From the IMG/VR virus record IMGVR_UViG_3300003690_002253: 64,000 nucleotides of DNA. One strand, written 5' to 3'. Numbering within the stretch: position 1 is the stretch's first letter; every line of letters starts with the position of its first letter. The translations under genes and the position numbers were made by a program. Below are positions 10,425 to 64,000 of the stretch, piece by piece. The notes under the pieces were generated by a model that saw only the letters and a program-made list of their open reading frames with translations, had not been told where the DNA came from and ran no database searches. This DNA is from an uncultured virus (IMG/VR IMGVR_UViG_3300003690_002253). Lineage: Duplodnaviria > Heunggongvirae > Uroviricota > Caudoviricetes.

Positions 10425-10479
10425 AAAGAGCACTCCTTGCAAAAATGGTTGCAGTTCCGTGCAACAAAATTCAGTGTCA

Positions 10480-11964
10480 CTAAGTCAACTGATTTTGCCT
10501 TACACTTAACGTTGCTGTCAACGGAAAATTACCATCAAATGACGCAATTTTCTGAAGAGCCGCAATTTTGTACAACGAGTATTTGATTGCAAGCTCCTCA
10601 GCCTCTTCGTTATTTGATCCAAACTTTTCAATCGTGGAATTTACCACAGGAGCCGGTTCACTACGAATTGCAGATAACATGCTCCGATTCTGAACAGCAG
10701 ACTTTTCCAACGAATGAGAGTCAACACATAGGTTAGCAAACGTACGTTGTTTTATCGATGCCACTTTATCAGAAAGTGGATAAGGATTCGACTCTATTTG
10801 CTGCTCAATATTACCATTATCCAACATTCGATTATAAATACTAGGCAGATATGCGGTTGCTTCCTTTATTAATCCTGATTTTCCGGATAATCGCGCCCAA
10901 TCAGAAAGTGCCAGAATGATCTTATTATTTGCCAACGCCGATAATCCTTCGGCACATTTAGTTGTTCCTAGATCACCCAAAATTTCAAGATCCAAAGGTT
11001 CTGCTTGTATCCCGCGATAAACCTCAGAAGAAGTCGTATTTCTTTGTCGCTCTAGTTTCGCCAAACCGTGGGCCACTTTTACTTGTGCGGAGACAGATTG
11101 ATCCCATTCACCGGGAAGCCCGTCCTGATACATAATAACTCGCAATGGCGCACTTTCCGACTCTGACATTTTTATGTAGTCCTGAAATTCAAAGACCCCA
11201 TTATCTGCGGCAGCTTTCGTCAACCAGTCAGCCTTAGCCCCATAAGCAATACGATCCGCAGGTCGAAATACACGACTAATGTCAAACCATGTGGGAGTAG
11301 GATTATCTACATGCAAATGATGCATGTCATCGCCTATTTTAATCAGGCGTGTGAGATTATCCTTACAACCTCCGGCAGCGCATTTCTCTTGGCCGCAATA
11401 CTCTGAGCGAGTTTTCGCCTTATTGCCACACCAAGAACACGAATCGTAAGGAACCCGACAAGCCATAGAAACAGCGATGTCAGTACCCTTGGCTAACTTC
11501 TCCAACTCCACATCTGCAACAAACCCTTTGTTTCTGTCAGCGGCACTCTTATCAGCATTTAACGCTACCAGAAGCTCTACGCGACGCATGGGTGCGTTGT
11601 ACGACGAAGACTTAATGATGCCAAAACTGGGATCACCCCGATCCGACTTATTTTTGTGGTTCCGAAAAAATTTGGCAAACTTGACAAACGTATCGTGATA
11701 TTCCTTGCAAGTAGCTTCCTTGAAACCATCTCCATTACGATTGGGCCCGTAAGCTTCACTAGCTCCCAGTGCAATCATATGAACTGGGACTTCATCATTT
11801 GCAAACTTTGTGCGGTCAACTTCGTCAATGAACATATGCCCGGCAAGCTTCATAAACTCACGACGATCGTTGCCAATAAGGCCACGGCTGGAAATAGGCA
11901 CAGGAACCATAACAGGGCGATCCCATTCCCATCCAGACGGCGATACGTACTTAATCATTGACAT
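10480..11964 (-). CDS. Prohead maturation protease with Zn-finger
   Basis: NRNGDGF, FRNH (candidate His), VSMAC (candidate Ser) followed by CSWCGN...YC; position upstream of scaffold. Confidence 0.7.
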   Translation of the reverse strand: MSMIKYVSPSGWEWDRPVMVPVPISSRGLIGNDRREFMKLAGHMFIDEVDRTKFANDEVPVHMIALGASEAYGPNRNGDGFKEATCKEYHDTFVKFAKFFRNHKNKSDRGDPSFGIIKSSSYNAPMRRVELLVALNADKSAADRNKGFVADVELEKLAKGTDIAVSMACRVPYDSCSWCGNKAKTRSEYCGQEKCAAGGCKDNLTRLIKIGDDMHHLHVDNPTPTWFDISRVFRPADRIAYGAKADWLTKAAADNGVFEFQDYIKMSESESAPLRVIMYQDGLPGEWDQSVSAQVKVAHGLAKLERQRNTTSSEVYRGIQAEPLDLEILGDLGTTKCAEGLSALANNKIILALSDWARLSGKSGLIKEATAYLPSIYNRMLDNGNIEQQIESNPYPLSDKVASIKQRTFANLCVDSHSLEKSAVQNRSMLSAIRSEPAPVVNSTIEKFGSNNEEAEELAIKYSLYKIAALQKIASFDGNFPLTATLSVRQNQLT

Positions 11965-19347: not shown

Positions 19348-22296
19348 TTATCTGTCACCGTGGCGTGGTCTCCCCTGTGAGTAACGCGAACTGCCCGGGT
19401 AAACGGTATTACTGGATGCGACCGGGGGGGTGCCCCGGAGGTGTTGACCAGCATCGTGCGTTGCTCGGCTATACGCAGCGCGGTCTCCACCGGCGAGGGC
19501 CTGTCGAGCTTCTAGATCGGCAGTGAACTGGTTCGCAGCCTGCCGATCCTTCAATGCGTCCCAGAATGCCCGTCTACCTTTATTTCTATTAATAGTTTGT
19601 AGAATGTCCGGTGTTTTATCCACCGAATTGTATTTTTCCAATCTATGAATTGCGGTGCCAGCACCACTTGCACCCACACGGAGTATCTGACGAACCTTCT
19701 CGTGGCCGCTCCGGGGTTCCGCTGAAAAACTACCAGTAATCGGGTTCTTCCAGTACGTCATGTTCTCTCGAAAAACAGTCTGAAAATTATTAGCTGCATC
19801 TATGATGCCCTTATTATGATAAAATTCCCGGTGCCACTCTTTTAGTTTTTCCGGATCTTGCGGTCGTTCTTCATTAAGTTCATGCATGCGTGCTATTGCT
19901 GTTGCTCTCTGCTCTCCGACCTGCTCATAACTACTCTCGTTATAAGTAATACCCGCCGTCACATCTCGTTTACTTTCTATCTGCGCTGGAAGATCTTTAA
20001 CCTCCTGACGTAACTGATGAAGTCGGCCCATCTGATTTATCTGATCCCTATCCAACATTTGTTTCCTAATAACATCAGGATGATAAGGACTCCTTCTCTC
20101 CTCTGGGGGGAGTTCAGATATTTTACTCTGTAACTCTTCCCTAATGACGTCGTGAGTAAGGCTCGGATGATCCTTAGCCCACTGCCCTAATCCCTCAGCA
20201 GCTTGTATGCGAGAAAACATGGTAGGATGACTTCCCTTTTCGGCTATCGCCAGCTCCCAAGCTTTGCTCGGAGATATCACATTTCTGCCCTTGTCAAGAA
20301 TCTCCTGCGCATAATCTTGAACTTGTGCCGCATACACTTTATTCTGCCTTATCCGCATAGCCTCAAGTCGGAAGTCCCTGTGACCGACGGGCCTGCCATC
20401 CACTGTCCAGCGTGATATGTCATCGTCGGTGTTCAGCTCGCCATCCTTGCCCGGCATCCGCTGGACTTCGTTAGGAAGTTCCGAAAGAGGCACGTTCTTA
20501 CCGTCCTCTCCAGTGAGAAACGCGTTTCTCGAAGAATCCTGTGTGTGATGCCCGTGTTGTTCTAACAGCCAACCATATACCTGTCTTCTCTGAACTTCCT
20601 CATCTTCCACCCGAATATCACCTTCCGGTGTGTATGCCTTTTCCTGTAGATCCTTAACAGCTCTAAGATATTTCTCTCGTGGCATTGTTTCTAGCATGCC
20701 GCGAACCTGTCTAACGCGATCAGGCATTGGTATTTCATTACCGTCACGATCTTTTTCCGAAGTAAAATGATCCACAAAAAAGTTGACCAGCTGTTCTCGG
20801 GGTAGATCCTGTTCAACCTCTTCCGCATTAGGGGCAGCAAAACGTTCTCCACCGCCCTGCCTCAGTTTTTCCTCCATAGCCTTAAGTCCTCGTTCTGCAT
20901 TTGGTAATCTCCCCTTAAGATTCTCATATGTGCCTTCCGTGTAGTAATCACTCAGTGGCTGACCCTCAGTCAAATCGTAGCCCCAACGCATGTCCCTATC
21001 GTAATCACTGAACTTTTTACCCCATTGCGGATTCTCCGCAAGACCGAGCTTCCTAGCGATTGACCCTAAGAAATCCGCTCCACCAGCAAACATTTCCTGC
21101 GTTGCATACTGACCAGACTCCATACCCAATAATGCCTGCTGCATGTATTTATTGAACGTAGGATTAACTTCTGTTCGGCCAGTCCAATCAAAACCGATCA
21201 TCTTTTTGCCGAGATTTGGATTGGGTATCTTCTCTCCAGCCTTGGGATGACCTTCTTCATATTTATCCCAGTAGCCGTCTTTATTCTTATCGACCCACCT
21301 GTTCATATCCGGTTGAATAAGACCCTTAGCACGCTTGTAATTTTCCGCCCATCGACCCTGAGACCCGGCCCGCATTATCTGGGCATCCTCTTCTGCATTC
21401 TCAGACTTCCAAAGCGCATATGCTTCTTCAGCTGGTTCTTGCAAAGCATATCGCAACCCTTCAAAGGCTCCCAGCACCCGACCAGCGGTACTAACACCGG
21501 CTTTAAGTTTCCCAAGGCCCGGGACACTTTTTTTCATCCAACGAAGTTTCGTGAACTTATTCGGGATCAATCCAGTACCGGGCACCTTGTTCGTGTACTT
21601 GGTAACCCCTCTTAATGCATTCAAGTTACGCTTTAGAGTGCTCACCCCCTGAATGGTTGCCCTCTCAGTTGCGCTTAAAGCAGACAAAGGCCTCAACTTC
21701 CCTGCTTCATCAACCAAATTCAATGCGTTTCCATAACCCATTCCTTGCATAGCTTGCACAAATGGGTTAACTCCACGAAATCCTCTGGACAATACCCACG
21801 CTTTCGGTCCCAGCGCAGCCAGACCGGCTGACTCTTGAGTAGCCTTATAAGTGTTGTAGGCCCCGCGTATATTCGCTGGGGCATTCATAAATTGCCCGGC
21901 ACGGGAAAACATATCCTTCCCGGTCTGCGCCGCACCTTGATTCCACATTTGGTAGCCAGTTTTTCCAGCTTGACCCAGAGCTTGGAAGGGAAGCTGGATT
22001 CCTTTACCCATGAAGTAACGGGGATCACCCCGTATGTGAGCGCCCAGACCGTAATTACCCCAGTTTTTACCTAGGCTAAAAAGGTCTATACCGAACTCTG
22101 CTGCTCGGTGTCCGGGTGTTGTCCCCAACCTCTCCATCGGAACTTCTTGGTATCGCTGTGGCCTCCAGCCCGGGATATAGTTATACGATCCGGGGACACC
22201 CTGTAAGTGAGCGTCTTGCCCCGCCATGAGACGATGACCAGCGTACGATCCGTAAGCCGGTTCCGTCTCCATCGGTGAGGCGAATCTGCCAGTCAA
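19348..22296 (-). CDS. Large putative ejection/internal protein, possibly the C-terminal part of a frameshifted gene with 22181..23752
   Basis: 982 aa; TTG start right after an in-frame TAG, no SD, overlaps upstream ORF by 116 nt. Confidence 0.65.
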   Translation of the reverse strand: MTGRFASPMETEPAYGSYAGHRLMAGQDAHLQGVPGSYNYIPGWRPQRYQEVPMERLGTTPGHRAAEFGIDLFSLGKNWGNYGLGAHIRGDPRYFMGKGIQLPFQALGQAGKTGYQMWNQGAAQTGKDMFSRAGQFMNAPANIRGAYNTYKATQESAGLAALGPKAWVLSRGFRGVNPFVQAMQGMGYGNALNLVDEAGKLRPLSALSATERATIQGVSTLKRNLNALRGVTKYTNKVPGTGLIPNKFTKLRWMKKSVPGLGKLKAGVSTAGRVLGAFEGLRYALQEPAEEAYALWKSENAEEDAQIMRAGSQGRWAENYKRAKGLIQPDMNRWVDKNKDGYWDKYEEGHPKAGEKIPNPNLGKKMIGFDWTGRTEVNPTFNKYMQQALLGMESGQYATQEMFAGGADFLGSIARKLGLAENPQWGKKFSDYDRDMRWGYDLTEGQPLSDYYTEGTYENLKGRLPNAERGLKAMEEKLRQGGGERFAAPNAEEVEQDLPREQLVNFFVDHFTSEKDRDGNEIPMPDRVRQVRGMLETMPREKYLRAVKDLQEKAYTPEGDIRVEDEEVQRRQVYGWLLEQHGHHTQDSSRNAFLTGEDGKNVPLSELPNEVQRMPGKDGELNTDDDISRWTVDGRPVGHRDFRLEAMRIRQNKVYAAQVQDYAQEILDKGRNVISPSKAWELAIAEKGSHPTMFSRIQAAEGLGQWAKDHPSLTHDVIREELQSKISELPPEERRSPYHPDVIRKQMLDRDQINQMGRLHQLRQEVKDLPAQIESKRDVTAGITYNESSYEQVGEQRATAIARMHELNEERPQDPEKLKEWHREFYHNKGIIDAANNFQTVFRENMTYWKNPITGSFSAEPRSGHEKVRQILRVGASGAGTAIHRLEKYNSVDKTPDILQTINRNKGRRAFWDALKDRQAANQFTADLEARQALAGGDRAAYSRATHDAGQHLRGTPPVASSNTVYPGSSRYSQGRPRHGDR

Positions 22297-23752
22297 CTAG
22301 ATCATCAAGATATGACTCGATAGGCCGCATTGTCGTCTGAGAACCGGGATTTCTGCCTCCCAGTATATTCAGAGCACCACCGGTACGAGGGTCCTGTGAT
22401 TCCCACCATTGCTTGTAATGTGGATATATTTCTCTTGCCCGTATTCTTGCCGTGACCATCGGGTCCACATCAACAGGAGATGTACCGTACCTTAAATTCG
22501 GCACCGTAAATCCCCCCTTTCCATCGCCTTTACCGGTGTCAAATTCACCTATACCTGCCGGTTGGTCTTGCCTAAAATCTGGAACATTAAACGTTAACCT
22601 CTGACGCTGGCCCAGTTCATTGAGGGAGTACTTGTAGCCCGTGTCCGACGGGTACTTAGTATATGGATTGTAGTCAGTACGAGCGTAATTGCCATGTTGT
22701 CGGTTTCCCTGCGCGTCGTAACGCGGCGCACCTCCTTCTAATGACCCACCCGCAAAAAACCAAGCCATTTGTTCTTCGGTAACAGGAGGACCGTCCTTTC
22801 GATCTCCACCTTCCAACATTCGATTACCGAACTGAGTAGGATTACCAAACCCTCGTTGCAGCATTTGCTGATTGAGCCCGAAAATGACGCTATTGGTGGT
22901 GGGGTGAGTAAAATCAGAAAGCTCAACCTGCTGAGCCGTTTCACCCGGCCCCGACCCGCTTGCGCCCATACCATGAACCCATACGGGATTGTTCTGATCA
23001 TCAAAGGCCCAGCCACCACCGAGGGGGATACGAGACAGATGGCGACGCACTGCTTCCTGCGTCTTCTCATCCGACGTGAAATACTTATCACCTAACTTCG
23101 GATCGAGGTTTGCATACGGGTCCTCAGACCCTCGTAACGTAATACCGGCAGAAGACTCCAGCGGGTTCGGTGTTCCTCCACTTGGAACGTCCTCAAACTT
23201 ACTAGGATCGTATAGGGGGGTTTTCTGCGGAGGAGGCAAATTTTGCGGTAAATTCGTTTCCGACATTTGTAATACGGGGTTTTCCGGTAGCTCTTGTCCA
23301 AACTTATACAGAAACGCCCCATACTTCGCTAACGGCGTTGCATTTTGACTTTCGTCAAACTTGTTAAGGCTGGAACGACTGAAACCACCTAGCCGAGTAC
23401 TTCCCGGTGTTGACTTGGACATCAAGGTTTTCCAGTCACTGGGGCCCATACCAGCAGCCATAATGCCAGCTCCAAATGGGTTTGGCATTTTTGCTACCAT
23501 AGGAAGCAAACCCTTACCTATAGGCGTTTCCCACAAGTTTCCATAATTACCGCCTGCCCCATAAGACTTGCCAAACAAATTAGACAAGAAGCCGCCTTTT
23601 TGCGACAGAATAGTTGATGCTGGAGTGGTTACTGCCGGAGTGGTTACTGCTGGAGTGGTTACTGCTGGAGTAGTTGCTGGGTAGGTAGTTGTTGGCTGCG
23701 CCTGCTTAAACATCTGCCGGACAGCAATTTGACCTAATTCAGAAGGTGTCAT
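22181..23752 (-). CDS. Putative internal virion protein with leader MTPSELGQIAVRQMFKQA
   Basis: 523 aa, GGAGG SD, TTPAV repeats, Gly/Pro-rich. Confidence 0.7.
   Translation of the reverse strand: MTPSELGQIAVRQMFKQAQPTTTYPATTPAVTTPAVTTPAVTTPASTILSQKGGFLSNLFGKSYGAGGNYGNLWETPIGKGLLPMVAKMPNPFGAGIMAAGMGPSDWKTLMSKSTPGSTRLGGFSRSSLNKFDESQNATPLAKYGAFLYKFGQELPENPVLQMSETNLPQNLPPPQKTPLYDPSKFEDVPSGGTPNPLESSAGITLRGSEDPYANLDPKLGDKYFTSDEKTQEAVRRHLSRIPLGGGWAFDDQNNPVWVHGMGASGSGPGETAQQVELSDFTHPTTNSVIFGLNQQMLQRGFGNPTQFGNRMLEGGDRKDGPPVTEEQMAWFFAGGSLEGGAPRYDAQGNRQHGNYARTDYNPYTKYPSDTGYKYSLNELGQRQRLTFNVPDFRQDQPAGIGEFDTGKGDGKGGFTVPNLRYGTSPVDVDPMVTARIRAREIYPHYKQWWESQDPRTGGALNILGGRNPGSQTTMRPIESYLDDLVDWQIRLTDGDGTGLRIVRWSSSHGGARRSLTGCPRIV
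22219..22290. repeat. Dispersed coding repeat, also at 44410-44459, 44477-44531 and (partial) 45161-45188
   Basis: ccatgagacgatgaccagc...ccgtaagccggttccgtctccatcg near-identical; ccatcggtgaggcgaatctgcc identical at 22269 and 45167. Confidence 0.9.
23619..23680. repeat. 15-bp tandem repeat encoding (TTPAV)n
   Basis: gctggagtggttact unit repeated about four times. Confidence 0.85.
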
Positions 23753-25634
23753 TCGACCCCTCCTCCGGAGATTTCACTAAACCTCCCGGAATCCTTCCAA
23801 AATCTACACTACGAGAAATGCTGGGAACAAAACTCGTGCCTCGCTCTTCACTGACGGCCCCACGTCTAGCACCCTCCAGCAAACTCTTCTTCAGCCCCGA
23901 ACCGTACATTCTAGTCATCCAGTCCGGGTCATGCTGAAGACTGTACATTCCACGTATCATCTCCGGCTCAAAAGGAGGCGGCTCATCGTGAACATCAACT
24001 TTATCTATTCCAAATTCTTTCAAATCGACCAGCATTGATGGTCGTACTTTGGTGCCAATAGTGTAGTGCAGCACAGGACGCTCTAGATATTTTCCGACTG
24101 CCTGCTTTGGTGTCACATTCCTAGCGCCAGAACGTGGTTTCCACGTATGCTCCAGCGTGGAATAAGGAATAATATCATCTGGAACATTATCTCCGTACTC
24201 CTCTGTCAGACGAACATGATTAATAAGCCCCCGAGACAACAACTCAATATTTCTTCGATGAGGGGAAAGACCAGCCCCCTGCATGGCATCCCGGTAAGCA
24301 CTAACAAAGTATCGACGTCCTTCTCCCACGCCCTTGTACTTGGTCACAATCGACGGGTTAGGGAAGCCTTCACTAATAATATCCCCAGCTTCAACCTTAT
24401 CGCCTTTTTTTACCTTCAAACCATACCCCGCACCAACATAGTGAGGAACATCATCGATTGTTACAAAATAACCCCCAGCTGGAGCCTCCTCAATACGCTG
24501 AACAGTTCCATCCATCGTGGTGTGTGCCGCACCACCCTTGAACTTCTTCGGAACCTGTATGAGTTGATTAATGTACTTGAACCCGCCTACGGCCTCTTCC
24601 TCACCCACAACACCGCCAGAGTGTTTGGCGGCTAACTGAGCTTGGCTAAGTGGTTCGCTTAAAGCCTGTGCAGCTTGAAGACCTACCTGCTCTCCACGTC
24701 CCGGCAACGTTCCTTTCTCACGAACTCCCACATCTCGGGCGTAAACACCACCCGCAGGTGATCCTCCAACCATGGGAGATCGCACCAAGATGCGTTTCTT
24801 GCCCAACCGCTTCAGATGCTTTCTGATCTTGGGCGTAATAACAGTGTTCCTCTTGTATGGCCCCGTGTCGGCAGCCAGCAACGCTCCTTCGTTATCGGAG
24901 TCATCCGTGTCCACGGGCACACCCCGTCTAATCTTTTGCTGCCCTTCTTCCTCGTAATCGTTGTCCGTCACAACGAGGCGATGTGCCACTTGGTTCAACT
25001 GCTTGGAAAGAAAACCGGCATCCTGTGTGGCAAATTTCGTTGCGATAATTCCTTTTCGTGCCCCATACGTCCCAGCCCAATATTCCTCGGGGGACAGCCC
25101 CTCTGAATAACTGCGAAGAACAGGAATGGGAAGCGGCTCATCACGGTGATCCGCATACAGCAGGTCACTTCCCAGCAAACTGGCGAGATTCATGGGGTTT
25201 CCGCGAGCACCCGCGATAACCTGCATAGCCAGCGGATTATCCGCAGCAAGCGCCTCTTCCATGATTGCTTCCTGCTGCGGCTTCATCTCGGAACCTACTG
25301 CCCGGACGATGGCTTCGTTCATCTTCGTGTCGTCCAGATCTGTCCTGCTTAAGATCTTTGTCAGACGATCTCGAATACGCTTCCTTGTTTTCTCTGCCGC
25401 TTTAGAAGTTTTTAGATGTCGCAACCCAAACGAAAAACTTCCGCTTTCCTGAGCGCCTTGTCTCCCTACCTCATTCAAAGCAAAAGATATATCTCTGTAT
25501 CTATCCGGATATTCCTGCGCAACTTCCCGAAGCAGGTCAGTCAAACCCCGCTTATCGAGCACACGTTCATAATCACGCAATTCCTCAGGAAGCGTTTCAT
25601 TTACGAGAAACTGTCCTACAGTGGCACTTCGCAT
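23739..25634 (-). CDS. rpoC: DNA-directed RNA polymerase beta' C-terminal half
   Basis: GARGN, bridge helix GLSPEEYW...GARKG...TQDAGFLSKQL, trigger loop AAQALSEPLSQ...KHSGG, jaw LKVKKGDKVEAGD, RRNIELL. Confidence 0.92.
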   Translation of the reverse strand: MRSATVGQFLVNETLPEELRDYERVLDKRGLTDLLREVAQEYPDRYRDISFALNEVGRQGAQESGSFSFGLRHLKTSKAAEKTRKRIRDRLTKILSRTDLDDTKMNEAIVRAVGSEMKPQQEAIMEEALAADNPLAMQVIAGARGNPMNLASLLGSDLLYADHRDEPLPIPVLRSYSEGLSPEEYWAGTYGARKGIIATKFATQDAGFLSKQLNQVAHRLVVTDNDYEEEGQQKIRRGVPVDTDDSDNEGALLAADTGPYKRNTVITPKIRKHLKRLGKKRILVRSPMVGGSPAGGVYARDVGVREKGTLPGRGEQVGLQAAQALSEPLSQAQLAAKHSGGVVGEEEAVGGFKYINQLIQVPKKFKGGAAHTTMDGTVQRIEEAPAGGYFVTIDDVPHYVGAGYGLKVKKGDKVEAGDIISEGFPNPSIVTKYKGVGEGRRYFVSAYRDAMQGAGLSPHRRNIELLSRGLINHVRLTEEYGDNVPDDIIPYSTLEHTWKPRSGARNVTPKQAVGKYLERPVLHYTIGTKVRPSMLVDLKEFGIDKVDVHDEPPPFEPEMIRGMYSLQHDPDWMTRMYGSGLKKSLLEGARRGAVSEERGTSFVPSISRSVDFGRIPGGLVKSPEEGSNDTF

Positions 25635-27340: not shown

Positions 27341-28642
27341 CTAATAACTAAATTGTTGGGCAGCAGCACGACCTAGATCACTCGCCGTCTTTGCATCATC
27401 ACCACCCCCGCCGAAACGGTTGGAAAGGTAATACCCGAGAGCACCACCACCAGTCGTCGCGACTAGATTGTAAATACGTTGCAACCTCTCTCGTCGTTCT
27501 CGCTCACTCGGAGTCTCGTCCTGTTTGACTCCCGGACCCAAGAGCGAGGACAATATGTAACCACCCAAAGCACCAGCGCCTACCGGAGCAGCCTTGTTTA
27601 TTGCTGTACCAACCCCTTCACGCCATTTTCCTGCTTCTTCCGCTTGACTCTTCATACCCGCAGACACGTCAGCAGCGGCTCCCGGTAATGGGTCTAGAAC
27701 CCGAGAGATCTGCGGTAAAACCTCTCCAGTAAACTCAGCGGCATCACTTGTCACCTCCTGAAATTCACCTGCCGCATCCGCGACCGCCCGGATGATCCCC
27801 GGTTTTTCCTCGAATGTCCAGCTTCGTTTGGCTGCTGGCAGGACCAGTTGCTTCCCAACATAAGGCCCCCACTTCTTCTTGAACTTATCGTACTCGACAT
27901 CCTGCCCCTCCGCGATTGGATCTGGGGCATCGGGCGAAACTTCGGATACCAGCTTGTTGAAATCGCTCAGCGGCACGGTTACCTCGACACCGTTAGGGGC
28001 TTTAATGGTCGTCATTGTAGGGGCCGCAGTCTGTTTTTCTACATTTTCCGCTGCGCCAGCCCCAGCTTCCGTATAACGTTCAATGTTCTGAACTATTCCC
28101 GGGGCTGCTGTGAGAGCAGCGCCGCCACCAACAATAAGGCCTTTACCCGCCAAACCTTTCAGGAACTCATTCGTCCACATAGTACTCCTGTGTTGTTGAG
28201 GGGTAAGCTCTGTTAATCCCGTATCATAAGCTTGCTGAGGCGTCATACCCTTTGGCCAGCCACCCCTCTTCCTCGCCCGACCCAAGGCGGCCTCCTGCAT
28301 AGCTCTCAAGACACGAGGGTTCATAAGCCCCCAAGTACCGAGGCCAGTCAATCCACCAACTGTCAGCGGATCACCAACTCCGGACTCGTAACCCCCATAA
28401 CCGGCAGCACCGCCAGCCAATAGCGGCGCAATGTTCCCCTTGATGTTGTGTGGCGCAGCTGAAGGGCCAATCCATTTACCACTCTCCTCACCTATGCTTT
28501 TCAGCCACTTGCTAACAGCTCGCTGGCCAGTCTTTTCCATAGCCCTTCTGCCCAGACAGGAAGCTTCCTTTGCCGTACCGCCTTCAGTAACTGCGCGCTT
28601 TTTGAAGGAACGACAAAGCTCGTTGAAATAATTGTAGGTCAT
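27341..28642 (-). CDS. Putative internal virion protein with glycine zippers and C-terminal tag KTASDLGRAAA
   Basis: 433 aa; KKRA near N-terminus; several GxxxG helices. Confidence 0.7.
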   Translation of the reverse strand: MTYNYFNELCRSFKKRAVTEGGTAKEASCLGRRAMEKTGQRAVSKWLKSIGEESGKWIGPSAAPHNIKGNIAPLLAGGAAGYGGYESGVGDPLTVGGLTGLGTWGLMNPRVLRAMQEAALGRARKRGGWPKGMTPQQAYDTGLTELTPQQHRSTMWTNEFLKGLAGKGLIVGGGAALTAAPGIVQNIERYTEAGAGAAENVEKQTAAPTMTTIKAPNGVEVTVPLSDFNKLVSEVSPDAPDPIAEGQDVEYDKFKKKWGPYVGKQLVLPAAKRSWTFEEKPGIIRAVADAAGEFQEVTSDAAEFTGEVLPQISRVLDPLPGAAADVSAGMKSQAEEAGKWREGVGTAINKAAPVGAGALGGYILSSLLGPGVKQDETPSERERRERLQRIYNLVATTGGGALGYYLSNRFGGGGDDAKTASDLGRAAAQQFSY

Positions 28643-28695: not shown

Positions 28696-31600
28696 TTATG
28701 TTTCTTCTAACACCTGAACTCTGTCATCCAGTGAAATATCACCGTTTGCATAGGCGGCTCGCATATCCGCCATGGTATTAAAAACCTTTTTCGGTCGCTT
28801 ACTCTTTGCCTTCGTGGCGTGCCACAGGCCCCCAACGTACTCATTACTGGGTGCATGTACTGGACGCTTAAAATCAGCCGGGCTCAGTAAGTTCCTGCTT
28901 GGAAGTAACCTCTCAAATGCTTCCTTCCTCGCCCCCTCCGTAGTGGGAACGTGATAGTTCATCGCGTCCCCGTCAAAATCGGCATTAAAGCCACTTACAA
29001 TCAAAGGAGACACCTGCAAAGTATCTCCCTTTGTGAGTATAGGTTTGAACGCCATAATACCAAATTTGTGCAACACAGGCGCACGATTAATGATAACGGG
29101 ACGATGCTCCATTTCCGATAGCAAAGTCTCCCTCGCAAGGTCTGATCTGTCACGAATATGCTGCATCGCATGGCGAATTGACATCCCCTTCCGCTTCAAA
29201 CGACGAACAATAAACTTCTGGTAGACGTCAAATGCCTTATCCTCAGGTAGTCCCACGCTATCCATGTCTAAATTCGGGTTTGGTATGATGACGGCGCGGC
29301 CCACATTATCTACCGTGGTTGATATGAGTTTACGCTGCACAGTGCCAAACTTAGGACTTGTGCCGAATACGTCCTTCAGGATGCCTCGAACGCCCCGCTC
29401 CTGCGACTTCTGGCTGATAGGGTCCCCAAGACCCGTCACAGCTTTGAATGCGTTATAGACAGCTAGACGCTCCTCTCCTGTCTCATCCCCGAGAAGGTCT
29501 TTCATACCGGATAAATTCTTGTTCGCCTCAAACAGCTCCTTGTACAGATAATTAGCATCATTAATGAGCGGTATATCATTGCTCATCATATTGACAGGCC
29601 TGAAAGCCGGAGGAAGCACAGGCGCTCGTTTCAATATCCAGTCCTTGGGTTCAATGCCCAGCTTCTTGGCACTCTTTAGGTACCCTAATTTCCTGATGGC
29701 CTGATCTCTCTCTGTGCGTTTACCCATGCGGATAACTGCACGCGTCTTTGCAAGTTCCTTATCCAAATCAATCGCGGAAAGTGCTTTGTGGATAGCCTTA
29801 GGGCCTGACCCAAAACCGGGAAGGTCTTTTGCCCCGCCAATGACATTCTGAAAATCCTTTTGCGTCAGCCCCAGTAAACGACGAATAGGCTCTTCCATCA
29901 CAGGATTCGGCATCGGCTCAGCAAATTTAATTGCCGACCAGCGGTTACCATTGTGTCCGCCTGTCATAGCTGTATCAAATAAGCCGCCGCGAATAGGCTG
30001 AAGACCTTTGTTCCAGTCTACGCCATCCGCACTCGCCAAGTTTCTACTTCCAGCTAACTTGTCAACGTCCTTGTTCGTCAGGGCCATGATGTGGGTTTGA
30101 GTACCCTCTCTCTTGACATTGACACCAGCTGCGCGAAGTTGATTCACAAACTTGGTGTAAACCATGGGAATCTTGGGGTCCCGAGGATTAACCCCGGACA
30201 TGAACTGAAGCCAGTAATCCTCGTTACGCTGTCCGCGAACAGTTCCCACATCCTGCAAAGTCTCAGTAGCGCCATGAGACAGAAGCGCATTGGTATCCAT
30301 CAACGCCATACGCTTAGAACCTGACTCACCGCCCTTGGCAGGAGCACCCTCCGCAGAATAAGCACCAGCACCACGCGCCTGTCCTTTAGTCTCCGCTGTG
30401 TGGTGCAGCTTCATAAAGAAGCGGTTCCCCGTGGCAATGCTGGTTATCTTCTTGTCTCGGGTAGGATCATAGATATCCTCCAGATCAGATAGCCCCTCAC
30501 GGCGCAGTTGGTCATAAACCCACTGAGACATGTCTTTCGACGTGTCGAAATCCTGCACCTTTATGGGTTTACCACGCTTCGCAGCGATCTTACCCAGATA
30601 GAGTTCCGCTTGTTGTGCGGGATTGGTGCGTGTAATTATTCCAAGGGGACTGAGGAGAACTTCAAAGGGCTTACCGTCTTTATCGTGCGGCATCTGGTCA
30701 TCTGGGATGATGTCAGCAATGACACCTTTGTCCCCGTAACGACCGGAAAGTTTATCTCCCACTTGCATGTCGCTGTAGCTTTTAACAACGACAACCGGCC
30801 CCTTCTTCCCCAGTTCAACGTCGGTAACAACCCCGGGATCGTGATGATTCCATATGATACTCGCATCTGCATGACCGGCCTGTCCTTTCTTATGGACTTT
30901 ATTATACGCCGTTTCTCGCTGGCTGGTTGCCAATACGAGAGGATCTCCATATTCGACGGCAGTTCCGGGTTTTATAACCCCATTTTCGTCCAACCTAGAC
31001 AACGCGGCCTTATCATACTTGCCGGGAAACAAGCTGATGTAACTCTTCTTACCAATCTTAGTCTTGTCATCAACATCCAGATCATGTTGATACATATGCT
31101 CGGATTTGAGTCGCTTGGCAAAGCTCTCCGAAATAACCGAAGCATCCTCAAAGTTCTTACCTTGCCAAGAAACATAAGCTACACGTGCGTTCTTACCTAA
31201 AGCAGTAGTTCCAGCCGGGTCAGTGAAGTTAGATCTAACTAACAACTGTCCCTTCTTGAACAAATCTCCATGAGAGATAACAGGAGTCTGATGAATGAAT
31301 GTTTTTCTATTGAATGGAAAGTTATTATACAACTCAAGTGTTTCTGTTTCACCATCAGTATACTTAACAGTCACACCATCTTCATCTATCTTCGATACTT
31401 TTCCAGACATTGAAGCATAACGACTCCCCATGTACTTACTGTATTCTTCCTCGTAACTTCGTTTTCCATCCGTTCCGGGAATTGCAGATTGAACTAAAGG
31501 AGCCTCCGCATCAACTAAAGGAAGGGCTTGTGTTGTCATACGACTTGCCATAACAAGTCGTTGTCCTTTCACCATGCTCTTAAGAGGAATCATGTTAGCA

Positions 31601-33126
31601 AGAGGACTCAAAGCGCTCTCAAAATCAGGAAGAACAAGATCAATATTCTTCTTCTTAGTCCATATCATCTTACCGCCCGACATGGCGACAACTCGCGGAC
31701 TTTTATGTGACATCGAATCCGGGAAACCTACAGTTAAATCAGCAACGTCCTGCGGAGAACGCCAGACCTTACTACCCGTCTTCGGGTTAATAAACTGAGC
31801 GTAGATTTTCCCGTCACGACCTTTGCGGGCATTGCGAGCCATGTATAAATCAACACCTACCTTCTCCGATTCAGGCGTGCGAAGAGGATCAATGAACCCA
31901 AAATGACTGGGTTGAACGTTACGTGCTTCTTCAGGAACCGCCTCCAGACTGGGAATACCTCCTGCGCCTAGCCGACTAATAGAATAAGCCTTGTCATAAA
32001 TCTCAGCCGGGTTGATTTCTTCCAAAGCCTGCCCAAGCCCCGACCCCAACAGCGCCGCCTCCATCTGCGATTTCAGAGCCGACGAAGGAAGCTTAGACAA
32101 ATCACCTTGATTAGTGGCTTTCCATAACAAGTTCCGCCTTACTCCACCTGAATCACGCCTAACTCTCTCAGAAAATAAATCCTCGGGACCCAATACCCGC
32201 TGATACGGCAAAGCATCTCTGTCATCTACAGAATCTTTGCCTTGAGACACGTTAATGAGTTTCTTAGTGATATCTAAGACAGCATCAAGACTCAGCCCCT
32301 CGTAGGGAGTGCCAAGTGTGCGCTTAGTCACTTCCGGATCAAGCGCCATACTTTCAAACTTTTCTACGAGCTTTTCCCGCGTTGACTGTTCATCACCTTC
32401 TAGGTCTTTGTCATTCAGGAACTTATCTTTAAGCTTCTTGTATGCAGACGCTTCGTCCGTTGGATAATTCGCGGCGTAAATCTCCGGACCCCACGCATCT
32501 TGTAATTGTTTCGGGGTGACGCCCATCGTCTTAAGCAACGGCATGAGAGGAATTTTAGCTTGCCCGGCTCGTATGTAGAAAACACCTTTCTCTGGGTCGA
32601 GAAAATAGCGATGTGACAGGCCTTTACCGGGCATGATATTAGCATGCGCTTCAATTTCTCCATTGTCTTTGATGCGTGTAAATACTCCCGAACGTAACCT
32701 CTGTTGGTTTCGCAATGTGTACTCGTTGCCCTGATGAATATATGTGCCACGACCTGTCAAGTGAGGCACCGTCATCAAAACAGACTTCTTACGATCAATA
32801 ACATCTCCTGTTTCATTATCCGTCAACTCCCACGTCCCGCGTAAACGACGCCCACGCGTCTCACCAGCTAGAATAGCTTTCTTCTGGTCTTTTATCGTGA
32901 CGTAGTCGGGGTCCAGATAATGAATATCCCGCAGACTCAGCGTGTGCTGTGTATTAGAAACAGGCTCAACACTTCCCGCCGCCTCCAACACATGACTGTA
33001 TATGTTGCGGCGAGTAGCCGTGACATCCCCAAATGAACGGGGATCTTCCTTCTCCGGCTCGACGGCAGGAAGCGGCTTAGAAGTCAATAAAGAAGTCGGT
33101 AAGCCGCTAAGAATATTGATATTCAT
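28696..33126 (-). CDS. rpoB: DNA-directed RNA polymerase beta / beta'-N-terminal fusion
   Basis: Beta motifs TPESEKVG, KNFEDASVISE, GDKLSGRYGDKGV, FMKLHH followed in frame by beta' motifs PVLPPAFRP, NRAPVLH and catalytic NADFDGD. Confidence 0.95.
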   Translation of the reverse strand: MNINILSGLPTSLLTSKPLPAVEPEKEDPRSFGDVTATRRNIYSHVLEAAGSVEPVSNTQHTLSLRDIHYLDPDYVTIKDQKKAILAGETRGRRLRGTWELTDNETGDVIDRKKSVLMTVPHLTGRGTYIHQGNEYTLRNQQRLRSGVFTRIKDNGEIEAHANIMPGKGLSHRYFLDPEKGVFYIRAGQAKIPLMPLLKTMGVTPKQLQDAWGPEIYAANYPTDEASAYKKLKDKFLNDKDLEGDEQSTREKLVEKFESMALDPEVTKRTLGTPYEGLSLDAVLDITKKLINVSQGKDSVDDRDALPYQRVLGPEDLFSERVRRDSGGVRRNLLWKATNQGDLSKLPSSALKSQMEAALLGSGLGQALEEINPAEIYDKAYSISRLGAGGIPSLEAVPEEARNVQPSHFGFIDPLRTPESEKVGVDLYMARNARKGRDGKIYAQFINPKTGSKVWRSPQDVADLTVGFPDSMSHKSPRVVAMSGGKMIWTKKKNIDLVLPDFESALSPLANMIPLKSMVKGQRLVMASRMTTQALPLVDAEAPLVQSAIPGTDGKRSYEEEYSKYMGSRYASMSGKVSKIDEDGVTVKYTDGETETLELYNNFPFNRKTFIHQTPVISHGDLFKKGQLLVRSNFTDPAGTTALGKNARVAYVSWQGKNFEDASVISESFAKRLKSEHMYQHDLDVDDKTKIGKKSYISLFPGKYDKAALSRLDENGVIKPGTAVEYGDPLVLATSQRETAYNKVHKKGQAGHADASIIWNHHDPGVVTDVELGKKGPVVVVKSYSDMQVGDKLSGRYGDKGVIADIIPDDQMPHDKDGKPFEVLLSPLGIITRTNPAQQAELYLGKIAAKRGKPIKVQDFDTSKDMSQWVYDQLRREGLSDLEDIYDPTRDKKITSIATGNRFFMKLHHTAETKGQARGAGAYSAEGAPAKGGESGSKRMALMDTNALLSHGATETLQDVGTVRGQRNEDYWLQFMSGVNPRDPKIPMVYTKFVNQLRAAGVNVKREGTQTHIMALTNKDVDKLAGSRNLASADGVDWNKGLQPIRGGLFDTAMTGGHNGNRWSAIKFAEPMPNPVMEEPIRRLLGLTQKDFQNVIGGAKDLPGFGSGPKAIHKALSAIDLDKELAKTRAVIRMGKRTERDQAIRKLGYLKSAKKLGIEPKDWILKRAPVLPPAFRPVNMMSNDIPLINDANYLYKELFEANKNLSGMKDLLGDETGEERLAVYNAFKAVTGLGDPISQKSQERGVRGILKDVFGTSPKFGTVQRKLISTTVDNVGRAVIIPNPNLDMDSVGLPEDKAFDVYQKFIVRRLKRKGMSIRHAMQHIRDRSDLARETLLSEMEHRPVIINRAPVLHKFGIMAFKPILTKGDTLQVSPLIVSGFNADFDGDAMNYHVPTTEGARKEAFERLLPSRNLLSPADFKRPVHAPSNEYVGGLWHATKAKSKRPKKVFNTMADMRAAYANGDISLDDRVQVLEET

Positions 33127-43041: not shown

Positions 43042-43233
43042 ATGTTAGTCCTCTCTCGAAAGAAGAACGAGTCAATTGTCATTAACGATAACATCCACAT
43101 CACTGTCGTGGAAGTGCGAGGTGACAAGGTGAGGCTCGGAGTTACTGCCCCAAAAAGCGTGCCAGTACATCGCAAAGAGATTGCGGATAAGATAGAGGCA
43201 AAGGAAGCCTCTACTGTCACAACCAGTGAGTGA
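43042..43233 (+). CDS. csrA: Carbon storage regulator CsrA (translational repressor)
   Basis: MLVLSRKKNESIVINDNIHITVVEVRGDKVRLGVTAPKSVPVHRKEI; AAGGA SD. Confidence 0.95.
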   Translation: MLVLSRKKNESIVINDNIHITVVEVRGDKVRLGVTAPKSVPVHRKEIADKIEAKEASTVTTSE

Positions 43234-43652: not shown

Positions 43653-44219
43653 TTACCCGCTAAACGGGTTAAACCTTTTCATATTTTCCCATATATTTCC
43701 CGGAATATCTGACAAGCCCTGTGTTTGCCGGGGAGGGAGTCCCGCTTGCGCGCGGGCACGTGTATCGTTTCGTTTCCAGTTATACCCGCCGTACCCACTG
43801 CCAGCATTCAGCCGTTTGAACAAATCCATCGGATTATTCGGAAAATCCAATGGTGTTCGTGGCGTTGTCCCATCGCTGGCCTCGATCTGCGCTAGGGTGG
43901 GCGCACCACCAGTAAAGTTGTTGGGATTAACTGCCGTGTCACGTGTCGTACGCAGGTCCCGTCCACGTGCAGCGACAAAGCTTGGGGGATATGGGAATTG
44001 GCGCTGCGGCTGATCAGGAGGTAGTTGAGTTAATTCGTGACCATACGGTCGGCTTCGAGGTAGGTTCTGTGGAGAATCAGCATCTCGATTCTTGGACAGG
44101 TACTCAGGAGCATTCTTCGGTGAATACGCGCTTCTCGCCTCATTCCCTTGCAGCGGTGGAGCCGCACTCTTCATCATCTGTCGAGCAGCAATTCGACCTA
44201 ATTGAGCAATTGTGTTCAT
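43653..44219 (-). CDS. Leader-tagged Pro-rich protein, paralogue 3
   Basis: Starts MNTIAQLGRIAARQMMKSA. Confidence 0.75.
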   Translation of the reverse strand: MNTIAQLGRIAARQMMKSAAPPLQGNEARSAYSPKNAPEYLSKNRDADSPQNLPRSRPYGHELTQLPPDQPQRQFPYPPSFVAARGRDLRTTRDTAVNPNNFTGGAPTLAQIEASDGTTPRTPLDFPNNPMDLFKRLNAGSGYGGYNWKRNDTRARAQAGLPPRQTQGLSDIPGNIWENMKRFNPFSG

Positions 44220-44241
44220 CCTTAGCTTCCCCCTGTTTTCG

Positions 44242-44685
44242 TTAAGGATTTCGGCCAATCAGATTGGGGACTGGTCTGGGAATCAAAGGACCGGTTGCAC
44301 GTCCGGCGGTGGGGGTGCTAGGGGTTGGAGCAGGAGCAGGAGTAGGAGTAGGTCGGTTAATCAGACTGGGGGCTGGTCTGGAAATCTTAGGACCGGTTGC
44401 ACGTCCACCCATGAGACGATGACCAGCAGCCGAGCCGTAAGCCGGTTCCGTCTCCATCGGTGCCATCCGGGCTGACCCCGCCATGAGACGATGACCAGCA
44501 GCCGAGCCGTAAGCCGGTTCCGTCTCCATCGAGGATAGGCCTCGCTGCTGTTGGTTGAGGGAACGGTTCATCGGCGAGTTCATCGCCGCATTGGACGGAG
44601 CCGTACCGCCACGACGTGAGAGGTCAGCAGCATGCTTCATCATCTGTCGAGCAGCTACTCGGCCTAGTTGTGCAATTGTGTTCAT
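44242..44685 (-). CDS. Leader-tagged Pro-rich protein, paralogue 2
   Basis: Starts MNTIAQLGRVAARQMMKHA; internal repeats. Confidence 0.75.
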   Translation of the reverse strand: MNTIAQLGRVAARQMMKHAADLSRRGGTAPSNAAMNSPMNRSLNQQQRGLSSMETEPAYGSAAGHRLMAGSARMAPMETEPAYGSAAGHRLMGGRATGPKISRPAPSLINRPTPTPAPAPTPSTPTAGRATGPLIPRPVPNLIGRNP

Positions 44686-44732
44686 TTTAATTCTTCCGCA
44701 GAGAAGTCTCGTCCCTGCTGTCGTAGCCAACA

Positions 44733-45269
44733 TTATGGTCGGACATTGAACACACCGCCAAAGCCCCTACTAACGGCCTCAGACCAATTGGGGCCTGAAG
44801 CTTTGTTTGGTGGCGACCCGCGTGGTGTCCGTGGTGCTTCATAACTATCAGGAGTGCCTTCATCATCTAGATGCCCCGGAAATTGTGGGGTGAAAGGGAG
44901 ATTCTCCCGGCCCTGTGGATAGCTATTCATCAGATATTCATGCAGCTGATTGATGGTATCCCGCCCCGGCGAGCCGAGAGCGGCGTGAGTTAATTCGTGG
45001 GAAGGTGTTGGCGGCTGCTGATAACGTGGATTTCCCAATCCCTCAGGCGGACTTACGCGAGGGATATTCGGCTCATTGTATAATGGCGGCACTTCCGTAG
45101 TCCTTGGTGGAGGCGGCGGAGGGGCTTTTGGAATCCGTGATCCGGATTGCGGTGCACCGGCCCCCGCCATCGGTGAGGCGAATCTGCCCTCCGGCGCTGC
45201 AAACCCGTTCTGCGCCCGCTTAATCATCTCACGAGCAGCAATACGACCAAGCTGTGCTATTGTGTTCAT
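44733..45269 (-). CDS. Leader-tagged Pro-rich protein, paralogue 1
   Basis: Starts MNTIAQLGRIAAREMIKRA. Confidence 0.75.
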   Translation of the reverse strand: MNTIAQLGRIAAREMIKRAQNGFAAPEGRFASPMAGAGAPQSGSRIPKAPPPPPPRTTEVPPLYNEPNIPRVSPPEGLGNPRYQQPPTPSHELTHAALGSPGRDTINQLHEYLMNSYPQGRENLPFTPQFPGHLDDEGTPDSYEAPRTPRGSPPNKASGPNWSEAVSRGFGGVFNVRP

Positions 45270-46307: not shown

Positions 46308-46514
46308 TTACTCGATTCCATTCCTAATGGCCCACATTGCAACTTCGGTTTTAGAGCTGACATCCAGCTTCTTACGTATCCTACCAACATACGTCTTCAC
46401 CGTCTCATAACTAAGACCTAAAGACGTTGCTATTTCCTTGTATCGTAACCCCTTCACAATGAGTTTAACCACCTCAAGCTCACGAACTGTCAACTTTGCT
46501 TCAGGCATTACCAT
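46308..46514 (-). CDS. Stand-alone LuxR/GerE-type HTH regulator
   Basis: LTVRELEVVKLIVKGLRYKEIATSLGLSYETVKTYVGRIRKKL. Confidence 0.92.
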   Translation of the reverse strand: MVMPEAKLTVRELEVVKLIVKGLRYKEIATSLGLSYETVKTYVGRIRKKLDVSSKTEVAMWAIRNGIE

Positions 46515-47468: not shown

Positions 47469-47476
47469 ATGCCTAC

Positions 47477-48262: not shown

Positions 48263-48279
48263 ACAAAAGTCCTCAACTA

Positions 48280-49107: not shown

Positions 49108-49199
49108 AATAAACTCCTTTTTGTGCGGTGGAACTACAAATTAGCTGCCCAGACCATGAACGAAGTGTAACCCAAAGGGGAACGTCTGACAAGGAATAA

Positions 49200-49878: not shown

Positions 49879-49895
49879 GCAACTCCCGGTACAAA

Positions 49896-63874: not shown

Positions 63875-64000
63875 TTACAGCAACGCAGCTAGACGTCCGA
63901 GTTGTGCTGTCTTACCAAACTGATTAGGACTACCTGTGCGTACCAGCCCGGGCATCTTCTCCGCCCGGTGCTTAAACCAGTTTTCCCTCGCTGCCCTTGC
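63875..64000 (-). CDS. 3' end of a gene ending GKTAQLGRLAALL (partial)
   Basis: Open frame of 41 codons plus TAA read manually; carries the terminal tag motif. Confidence 0.6.
   Translation of the reverse strand, partial: ARAARENWFKHRAEKMPGLVRTGSPNQFGKTAQLGRLAALL

What the first reader, a model, noticed from the sequence alone, without database searches (positions are those of the whole stretch)
43653..45269. Candidate removable capsid-targeting tag used at either protein terminus, always bordered by K-x-A
Seen: four proteins begin with a near-identical amphipathic leader followed by KxA: MNTIAQLGRIAARQMM-KSA (44219), MNTIAQLGRVAARQMM-KHA (44685), MNTIAQLGRIAAREMI-KRA (45269) and MTPSELGQIAVRQMF-KQA (23752). 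Two other proteins END with the same motif preceded by KxA: KTA-SDLGRAAAQQFSY* (27341) and KTA-QLGRLAALL* (63875). KxA is on the cargo side in all six, so cleavage there would remove the tag from either end. The bodies are largely unrelated. Known precedent: the N-terminal capsid-targeting sequence of T4 internal proteins, removed by the gp21 protease. Inference: a packaging signal that works at both termini and loads cargo into the head.
Basis: partly seen in the sequence, partly recalled or inferred. Interest (0 to 1): 0.88.

Follow-up and report, generated by a model that had tools for sequence, protein, structure and literature searches.

The report
Cleavable terminal tags on phage proteins
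An uncultured large phage puts the same short helix-forming peptide at the start or the end of several otherwise different proteins, always joined through a Lys-x-Ala motif that is probably the cutting site of the phage's head-maturation protease, so the peptide is most likely a removable address label for loading proteins into the phage head.

Summary
A 9-14 residue motif (LG[RQ]-h-A-[AVL], h = I, V, L or A) occurs six times in the window. All six lie at protein termini: four N-terminal, two C-terminal. Shuffles give 0.06.

The window is part of a ~200 kb environmental phage with a fused beta/beta' RNA polymerase. The polymerase of its distant cultured relative Arash is the most abundant virion protein.

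My main addition concerns K-x-A. It is by far the most over-represented conserved residue pair in head-module proteins of this clade (30 observed, 4.0 expected). It clusters in the scaffold-like protein and its neighbours, at residue ~30 of the major capsid protein, and in Arash's matching genes. A protein with the T4 gp21 / herpes assemblin protease fold sits beside the scaffold gene. K-x-A is therefore probably the maturation cleavage motif, which makes the tags removable.

The C-terminal tag is conserved in homologues down to 34% identity, and the N-terminal tag recurs on one homologue from another metagenome. Head targeting itself is inferred by analogy with T4 and SPN3US leaders, not shown. 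Close relatives lack the tag.

The "unrelated bodies" are partly mosaic pieces of one gene family.

Verdict: new variant of a known kind. Confidence 0.45, interest 0.62.

The parts
43653..44219 (-). pA, 188 aa. Tag plus KSA occupies 44163-44219; the body is Pro-rich and low-complexity.
   Evidence: The only database relative is a 99% identical copy.
44242..44685 (-). pB, 147 aa. Tag plus KHA occupies 44629-44685. The body holds two copies of METEPAYGSAAGHRLM.
44733..45269 (-). pC, 178 aa. Tag plus KRA occupies 45213-45269. The body shares GRFASPM (22 identical nt) with the start of the 982-aa ORF.
   Evidence: family D12
22181..23752 (-). p523. The N-terminal tag MTPSELGQIAVRQMF plus KQA occupies 23699-23752, followed by a Pro/Thr-rich linker. 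It is the 5' part of a gene that is split here.
   Evidence: Homologue P0011 (1478 aa) starts with the same tag and is unsplit.
19348..22296 (-). p982, the 3' part of the same gene. It overlaps p523 by 116 nt in another frame.
   Evidence: It has 1 K-x-A against 5.2 expected.
27341..28642 (-). p433, a Gly-rich protein inserted between the RNAP gene and the p242 gene. The C-terminal KTA-SDLGRAAAQQFSY occupies 27344-27391. A weak N-proximal copy, KEA-SCLGRRAMEKTG, occupies 28523-28573.
63875..64000 (-). 3' end of an ORF cut by the window edge. The C-terminal KTA-QLGRLAALL occupies 63878-63913.
10480..11964 (-). p494, a prohead protease. Residues ~17-234 have the T4 gp21 / herpes assemblin fold; the C-terminal half is helical.
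   Evidence: It is a homologue of Arash gp222.
9057..10442 (-). Acidic, low-complexity scaffold-like protein with 7 conserved K-x-A sites.
6981..7922 (-). Major capsid protein. It has a conserved EKQA at residues 29-32.
   Evidence: Arash gp226 has KEA at residues 27-29.
28696..33126 (-). RNA polymerase: beta fused to the N-terminal part of beta' (1476 aa).
   Evidence: The Arash counterpart is the most abundant virion protein.
23739..25634 (-). RNA polymerase beta' C-terminal part (631 aa). In the closest relatives it carries a 290-830 aa C-terminal extension.

Best explanation
The peptide is a short amphipathic-helix propeptide that this phage lineage attaches to either end of proteins destined for the inside of the head. 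It is joined to the body through K-x-A, the inferred cleavage motif of the phage's gp21-like prohead protease.

Proposed sequence of events:
1. The tagged precursor binds, through the helix, to a component of the prohead core (scaffold, protease or inner shell surface).
2. It is enclosed as the shell assembles.
3. The protease then cuts after the Ala of K-x-A. That frees an N-terminal tag together with its K-x-A, or frees a C-terminal tag and leaves K-x-A on the body.

Shown:
- The motif, its terminal position and selection on the peptide.
- Conservation of the C-terminal copy in distant homologues.
- Clade-wide conservation and head-module concentration of K-x-A.
- A gp21/assemblin-fold protease next to the scaffold gene.

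Inferred:
- That K-x-A is the scissile motif.
- That the helix, rather than K-x-A alone, mediates head targeting.
For: The tag is specific and terminal. There are 6 of 6 terminal matches against 0.061 expected, and the profile separates them from all background. Synonymous changes outnumber non-synonymous ones in the three tandem leaders.

The tag is conserved outside this phage.
- Homologues of p433 at 70, 41, 37, 35 and 34% identity end in KTA-SALGRAAAQQFSY, KTA-SELGRAAAQQFSY, KTG...TIARLGRVSAH or KTA...DIIANLGRVAARDGLH. One of six homologues lacks it.
- P0011, a 1478-aa homologue of p523+p982, begins with MTPSELGQIAVRQMFKQA.

K-x-A behaves like a maturation motif.
- Over 17 ortholog alignments, conserved K(i)/A(i+2) occurs 30 times against 4.0 expected. 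The next best pair is 14 against 5.9.
- At offsets 1, 3, 4 and 5 the counts are 2, 7, 5 and 2. R-x-A gives 3 and A-x-K gives 2.
- The sites are: scaffold-like protein 7, p145 4, p139 3, protease 10, MCP residue 30 in 22 of 22 sequences, and p242 residue 27 in 11 of 12. The wider consensus is [ED]-h-[ED]-K-x-A-[AS]-[DE].
- Within the window the virion module has 108 against 57.6 expected (P = 2e-9). The tail-side genes have 1 against 4.3.
- 15 of 26 virion-module proteins, against 8 of 42 others, have K-x-A in the first 45 residues (P = 0.0016).
- In Arash, of 260 ORFs only three are enriched at P < 0.02, and all three lie just upstream of the MCP gene. Arash MCP has KEA at residues 27-29.

The context fits packaged cargo.
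- In 13 of 69 relatives the beta' C-terminal subunit carries a 290-830 aa extension.
- In 11 of the 12 extensions printed, a K-x-A followed by a Pro/Ser/Thr-rich linker lies within about 80 residues of the polymerase domain.
- The window has a stop at that point, and p523 starts there with tag + KQA + linker.
- Arash polymerase subunits are the 1st and 5th most detected virion proteins (passages).

Precedent. T4 internal proteins share only a capsid-targeting sequence (passages). SPN3US paralogues gp53 and gp54 share an identical 15-residue leader that carries the cleavage motif (passages).
Against: - No virion proteomics or expression data exist for this phage.
- Two near-complete relatives (MCP 84-86% identical) and Arash have neither the tag nor another leader shared by unrelated proteins. 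The head can therefore be built without it.
- P0010, P0012 and P0013, homologues of p523+p982, start without the tag.
- The polymerase subunits, the best candidates for packaged cargo, carry no tag.
- The three small tagged genes lie 20 kb from the head module, beside CsrA and LuxR-type regulator genes. They encode Pro-rich, probably disordered proteins.
- In p433, cutting at KEA would expose the N-proximal tag-like helix rather than remove it.
- In SPN3US every cargo propeptide found is N-terminal; only the protease itself loses a C-terminal piece (passages).
- All studied gp21-type proteases cut after Glu (passages), so K-x-A would be a new specificity and is unproven.
Confidence: 0.45

Rival explanations
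1. The helix is an assembly or docking element. Through it the tagged proteins bind one another or a hub such as p433, forming a complex. Head packaging is incidental or absent.
For: - The core is G-x-x-A-A on one face of an amphipathic helix (muH 0.36-0.53).
- p433 carries a tag-like copy near the N-terminus and one at the C-terminus.
- Tags and p433 are both absent from the relatives G1 and G2, which fits partners that come and go together.
Against: - Nothing shows self-association. The p433 model is unreliable (pLDDT 40.8).
- The model does not explain why K-x-A always separates tag from body.
- Whether P0011's or P0003's phage has both partners could not be checked.
Confidence: 0.18
2. The helix is a membrane-binding amphipathic helix. 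It places these proteins at the host membrane, during infection or after ejection.
For: - Mean hydrophobicity near 0 with muH around 0.5, and a basic face.
- Membrane-targeting helices are known at either terminus (recalled: MinD, FtsA).
- p433 and neighbours p537 and p502 have Gly-zipper-like hydrophobic segments.
Against: - The strict LGR-x-AA sequence is kept from 100% down to 34% identity. That is more than membrane helices usually need.
- The adjacency to the head-module K-x-A motif is left unexplained.
Confidence: 0.12
3. The helix only helps the protease recognise its substrate, as an exosite-binding element next to the scissile K-x-A. It does not direct packaging.
For: - In relatives L055 and L056 an amphipathic helix followed by KAA lies internally, between the polymerase domain and its extension. 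There no targeting is needed.
- K-x-A is the conserved part; the residues before it vary between relatives.
Against: - About 30 conserved K-x-A sites in other proteins have no such helix, so the protease does not need it.
- A C-terminal tag lies after the scissile bond and an N-terminal one before it, which is odd for a single exosite geometry.
Confidence: 0.1
4. The shared peptides are leftovers of duplication and recombination of the 5' end of the p523/p982 gene and have no function of their own.
For: - pB and pC carry DNA-level pieces of the p523/p982 junction: 56-nt copies at 88-93% identity and 22 identical nt.
- The trio is a lineage-specific insertion.
- The small proteins have no homologues beyond a 99% identical copy.
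Against: - The tags differ mostly at synonymous sites.
- The same motif sits at the C-terminus of the unrelated p433 family and is conserved to 34% identity.
- Its position is terminal in 6 of 6 cases.
Confidence: 0.1

Closest known systems
Capsid targeting sequence (CTS) of phage T4 internal proteins IPI-III, removed by the gp21 protease
   Same: A short leader is shared by otherwise diverse proteins encoded in a variable locus. The leader ends in the head protease's motif. A gp21-fold protease is encoded beside the scaffold and capsid genes.
   Different: - The motif is K-x-A rather than L/I-x-E.
- The tag is about 16 residues and helical.
- It is also used at C-termini.
- Packaging is not demonstrated here.
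N-terminal propeptides of giant-phage ejection proteins (SPN3US gp53/gp54, phiKZ gp93), cut at A/S/G-x-E
   Same: Paralogues that have otherwise diverged keep an identical short leader with the cleavage motif. A virion RNA polymerase is packaged in the same head.
   Different: - Those proteases cut after Glu.
- All cargo propeptides found there are N-terminal.
- The polymerase here is a two-gene fused beta/beta' type, not the five-subunit phiKZ type.
Encapsulin cargo-loading peptides and microcompartment encapsulation peptides (recalled, not tested)
   Same: Short terminal peptides that can sit at either end of unrelated cargo and dock it inside a protein shell. Encapsulin shells share the HK97 fold with phage capsids.
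   Different: Those peptides are not removed by a protease. No sequence similarity was tested or claimed, and no binding was shown here.
Herpesvirus assemblin cleavage sites, cut between Ala and Ser (recalled)
   Same: P1 would be Ala and P1' Ala or Ser, matching the inferred K-x-A-[AS] consensus. The enzyme fold is shared.
   Different: The position of the cut within K-x-A-[AS] is not determined here, and the enzyme is closer in fold to T4 gp21.

Membership tests
T4-type capsid targeting sequence (cleavable head-targeting propeptide) | Short terminal leader shared by proteins whose bodies differ | tested here: met
   Six copies on five ORFs. The bodies cannot be aligned except for short mosaic motifs.
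T4-type capsid targeting sequence (cleavable head-targeting propeptide) | Leader bounded by the cleavage motif of the phage's own prohead protease | tested here: inconclusive
   K-x-A bounds all six copies. It is the top conserved pair in head-core proteins (30 against 4.0), but cleavage itself is inferred.
T4-type capsid targeting sequence (cleavable head-targeting propeptide) | Cleavage motif L/I-x-E (cut after Glu) | tested here: not met
   The motif here is K-x-A. Studied gp21-type enzymes cut after Glu.
T4-type capsid targeting sequence (cleavable head-targeting propeptide) | Leader sufficient to bring a protein into the prohead; mature protein in the virion lacks it | not testable with these tools
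   This needs virion proteomics or a reporter fusion.
gp21 / assemblin-fold prohead protease (for p494) | Fold of the protease domain | tested here: met
- Foldseek probability 0.82.
- BFVD: 29 hits at E <= 0.001, including named prohead proteases.
gp21 / assemblin-fold prohead protease (for p494) | Catalytic His and Ser conserved | tested here: inconclusive
   H62, H90, H103, S166 and S177 are invariant in 16 sequences. They were not mapped onto the gp21 catalytic residues.
gp21 / assemblin-fold prohead protease (for p494) | Gene placed with scaffold and major capsid genes | tested here: met
   The gene order is p494, scaffold-like p461, p145, p185, MCP.
Encapsulin-type cargo-loading peptide | Terminal peptide binds the inner face of the HK97-fold shell protein and is retained | not tested
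   No binding test was possible. The adjacent cleavage motif argues against retention.

The most novel reading that the evidence does not exclude
This phage clade, which includes cultured Salmonella phage Arash, matures its head with a gp21-fold protease that has switched to a herpesvirus-like specificity: it cuts after Ala in K-x-A-[A/S]. One lineage has also evolved a portable 14-residue helix that works as a head-loading signal from either end of a protein. That would be the first natural two-ended, self-removing capsid-targeting tag in a tailed phage.
Probability: 0.3. Interest if true: 0.8.

Novelty: new variant of a known kind. Interest (0 to 1): 0.62.

Why it matters
If correct, three things follow.

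1. A new cleavage specificity for the T4 gp21 / herpes assemblin protease family. It predicts the mature ends of the capsid, scaffold and internal proteins across a large, almost unannotated clade of ~160-230 kb environmental phages. It can be tested at once in the cultured member, Arash.

2. A head-loading signal that works at either terminus. Studied phages use N-terminal leaders only. A two-ended tag would widen the design space for packaging foreign proteins in phage capsids, and it would let cargo genes be recognised in metagenomes by their ends.

3. A view of how cargo evolves. The slot after the polymerase beta' subunit is hypervariable. It is fused in some phages, and split and tagged in this one.

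Tried and rejected
- **Complex prediction.** No binding test was made.
- **p433 model.** pLDDT was 40.8. Its helices at 4-15, 28-53 and 416-430 are not reliable evidence.
- **Tag searches.**
  - A degenerate DNA pattern for IAQLGR[IV]AAR gave 0 hits in IMG/VR.
  - It gave 38 hits in metagenome contigs. All were internal or in frames with no nearby start, and I judged them chance.
- **Protein searches with pA.** The whole protein gave 1 hit among 50 candidates. Residues 1-40 gave 1 hit among 2 candidates. Both are the same 99-100% identical protein.
- **p433 family.** It was not found in IMG/VR or in GTDB genomes.
- **tblastn.** p433, p523, p982, pA, pB and pC gave 0 hits each against 76 relatives' loci. 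phmmer and blastp against the 12 beta' extensions gave nothing below E 0.4.
- **Profile of p494 against PDB sequences.** 0 hits.
- **Pfam and PHROGs on the tagged proteins.** 0 families.
- **'MNTI...KTA' at the scaffold N-terminus.** I rejected it as a tag copy. Relatives read SM[RN][ST]IDRF with an earlier start, and the profile does not score it.
- **An RNA-level role for the leader, for example CsrA binding.** I rejected it because of the synonymous variation and the C-terminal copies.
- **pA C-terminus against the p523 N-domain.** The resemblance is weak (E 1.9) and is not claimed.
- **Earlier notes of this scan.** None for this genome.
- **Literature.** A search for 'prohead protease' with 'K-X-A' found 0 papers. 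The library is open-access only.
- **Arash supplement.** It holds only the feature table and no peptides. The docx supplement could not be read.

Full report
**What the window is.** All long ORFs lie on the - strand.

- Pfam and PHROGs identify a 1476-aa protein that fuses RNA polymerase beta with the N-terminal part of beta' (28696-33126). They also identify a 631-aa beta' C-terminal part (23739-25634), a ribonucleotide reductase and two SET-domain proteins. Almost nothing else is named.
- The fused polymerase is 31% identical over 98% of its length to gp206 of Salmonella phage Arash.
- IMG/VR holds 76 loci with 40-67% identical polymerases, on contigs of up to 235 kb.
- In the Arash paper (passages read), gp206 is the most detected virion protein and the beta' part gp216 is the fifth.
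- tblastn against Arash makes 6981-7922 the major capsid protein (30% identity to gp226) and 10480-11964 a homologue of gp222.
- The window is not in IMG/VR, the JGI metagenome set or the phage collection.

**The observation.** The six peptides are exactly as described.

- The pattern LG[RQ][IVAL]A[AVL] matches these six places only. Shuffles give a mean of 0.061 and a maximum of 2 in 2000.
- All six are terminal (P about 5e-5).
- A profile of the six scores them at 14.4-22.0 bits. The best background over the window plus two near-complete relatives is 9.3.
- The three tandem leaders differ by 4-7 synonymous and 2-4 non-synonymous codons of 19. Each ATG is preceded by a purine-rich stretch.
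- The peptides are amphipathic if helical (muH 0.36-0.53).

**K-x-A.** I aligned 17 ortholog groups of virion-module proteins from the window and the IMG/VR relatives. I then counted residue pairs conserved in at least 60% of sequences.

| Measure | Result |
|---|---|
| K at i, A at i+2 | 30 observed, 4.0 expected |
| Next best pair (G-x-P) | 14 observed, 5.9 expected |
| K/A at offsets 1, 3, 4, 5 | 2, 7, 5, 2 |
| R-x-A / K-x-G / A-x-K | 3 / 2 / 2 |

- The conserved sites fall as follows: 7 in the acidic scaffold-like protein, 4 in p145, 3 in p139, 10 in p494 and 2 in p460. One lies at residue 30 of the capsid protein (22 of 22 sequences) and one at residue 27 of p242 (11 of 12).
- The wider consensus is [ED]-h-[ED]-K-x-A-[AS]-[DE].
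- In the window alone, the virion module has 108 K-x-A against 57.6 expected. The tail-side genes have 1 against 4.3, the polymerase 9 against 9.3 and p982 1 against 5.2.
- 15 of 26 virion-module proteins, against 8 of 42 others, have K-x-A in their first 45 residues.
- In Arash, of 260 ORFs only three are enriched at P < 0.02. They are gp220, gp223 and gp225, all just upstream of the capsid gene. The Arash capsid protein has KEA at residues 27-29.

This is the pattern that cleavage motifs show in T4 and in phiKZ-like phages. There, scaffold and core proteins are cut many times and the capsid protein loses a short N-terminal piece (passages).

**The protease.**

- A model of p494 built from 16 sequences (pLDDT 77.4) matches T4 gp21 (5jbl) with Foldseek probability 0.82.
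- BFVD gives 29 matches at E <= 0.001, several named prohead protease.
- The gene order, protease then scaffold-like protein then two small proteins then capsid protein, is that of T4 genes 21-22-23. That order is recalled, not taken from a call.

I conclude that K-x-A is probably this enzyme's motif. The studied relatives all cut after Glu, so this would be a new specificity. It resembles the Ala|Ser sites of herpesvirus assemblin (recalled).

**The tagged proteins.**

*p433.* It is an insertion. In the closest relatives the p242 gene follows the polymerase gene directly.

- Its homologues, found only in the large protein collection, keep an invariant N-terminus, MTYNYFNEL..SF.K.A.
- They also keep the KEA-SYLGRRAMEK element.
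- Five of the six keep a C-terminal K-T-A/G followed by 1-10 residues and then LGR-[AV]-[AS]-A. One reads DIIANLGRVAAR, close to the N-terminal TIAQLGRVAAR.

*p523 and p982.* They are one gene in P0010-P0013 (1335-1478 aa).

- P0011 begins with the same tag and Pro/Thr linker. P0010, P0012 and P0013 do not.
- In the window the two ORFs overlap in different frames, at a point where P0010 has 13 more residues.

*The slot after the polymerase.* In 13 of 69 relatives the beta' C-terminal subunit continues into a hypervariable 290-830 aa extension.

- In 11 of the 12 extensions printed there is a K-x-A within about 80 residues, followed by a Pro/Ser/Thr-rich linker.
- In L055 and L056 a helix precedes it.

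The window's p523 therefore sits where relatives have a covalently attached passenger. It begins with tag + KQA + linker.

*The three small genes.* They are an insertion between orthologues of the 171-aa and 128-aa genes. pB holds two 56-nt copies (88-93% identical) of the p523/p982 junction. pC holds 22 identical nucleotides of it.

**Reading.** K-x-A alone appears to suffice as a processing site, since about 30 conserved sites have no helix. The extra, strictly conserved, strictly terminal helix should therefore do something else.

- The simplest role, by analogy with the T4 capsid-targeting sequence and the shared leaders of SPN3US gp53 and gp54, is recruitment to the prohead core before cleavage.
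- This step is inferred.
- Against it, close relatives and Arash lack any such tag, and three homologues of the large cargo lack it.
- The polymerase is untagged, and the small proteins are disordered and encoded beside regulator genes.
- Studied phages show no C-terminal cargo propeptides.
- Rivals are a docking helix among the tagged proteins, a membrane-binding helix, a protease exosite, and recombination debris. The last is disfavoured by the synonymous pattern and by conservation in the p433 family.

**Limits.** The p433 model is unreliable. Only 64 kb of the genome could be seen. The contexts of the protein-only homologues could not be fetched.

Noticed in passing
window 43042-43230 (+): The only clear + strand gene is a CsrA homologue (Pfam E 3e-26). 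It lies right beside the three tagged genes and faces them. A phage-borne CsrA next to a LuxR-type HTH gene (46311-46514) suggests post-transcriptional control of this region.
   Followed up: partly
window 22219-22274, 44404-44459, 44476-44531; also 22269-22290 = 45167-45188: A 56-nt element is present three times at 88-93% identity. It is read as (S)PMETEPAYGSxAGHRLMAG each time and has GAGACG...CGTCTC at its ends. pC has the flanks without the inner 45 nt, as if it were an empty site. The peptide is conserved in the p982 family (P0010, P0012, P0013), so it may be a protein motif that spread by recombination.
   Followed up: partly
window 22181-22296: p523 and p982 overlap by 116 nt in different frames, while homologues are single 1335-1478 aa proteins. 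This could be a frameshift, reinitiation at a TTG that aligns with a Met of P0010, or an assembly error.
   Followed up: partly
loci L001, L004, L011-L013, L015, L016, L028, L054-L056, L061, L062: In the nearest relatives the RNA polymerase beta' C-terminal subunit carries a 290-830 aa hypervariable C-terminal extension rich in Pro/Ser/Thr linkers and Gly/Ala hydrophobic stretches. In 56 of 69 loci the tail is 37 residues or shorter.
   Followed up: partly
window 46530-62855 (-): A run of sugar-modification genes: three family-2 glycosyltransferases, an NAD epimerase/dehydratase, a dTDP-4-dehydrorhamnose 3,5-epimerase, a DegT-type aminotransferase, a GNAT, a sulfotransferase-like protein and an M19 dipeptidase. 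They may modify DNA, the virion or the host surface.
   Followed up: no
window 40963-42835 (-): Two adjacent SET-domain proteins of 152 and 474 aa, which is unusual in a phage. Relatives G1 and G2 keep one.
   Followed up: no
window 26586-27314, 11970-13478, 33136-34749 (-): p242 has Pro/Met/Gly repeats (GGPPMDPMAGGG). p502 and p537, like p433, have Gly-zipper-like hydrophobic segments. Arash gp221 and gp224 look similar. They are possible membrane-inserting ejection proteins.
   Followed up: no
Arash record 67023-67808, 79928-80704, 134702-135487, 34005-34937: Four Arash ORFs share a ~40-residue N-terminal domain (IEFYGD.L.VV...ARRLVENLGL). This is a paralogue family, not a cleavable leader.
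   Followed up: no
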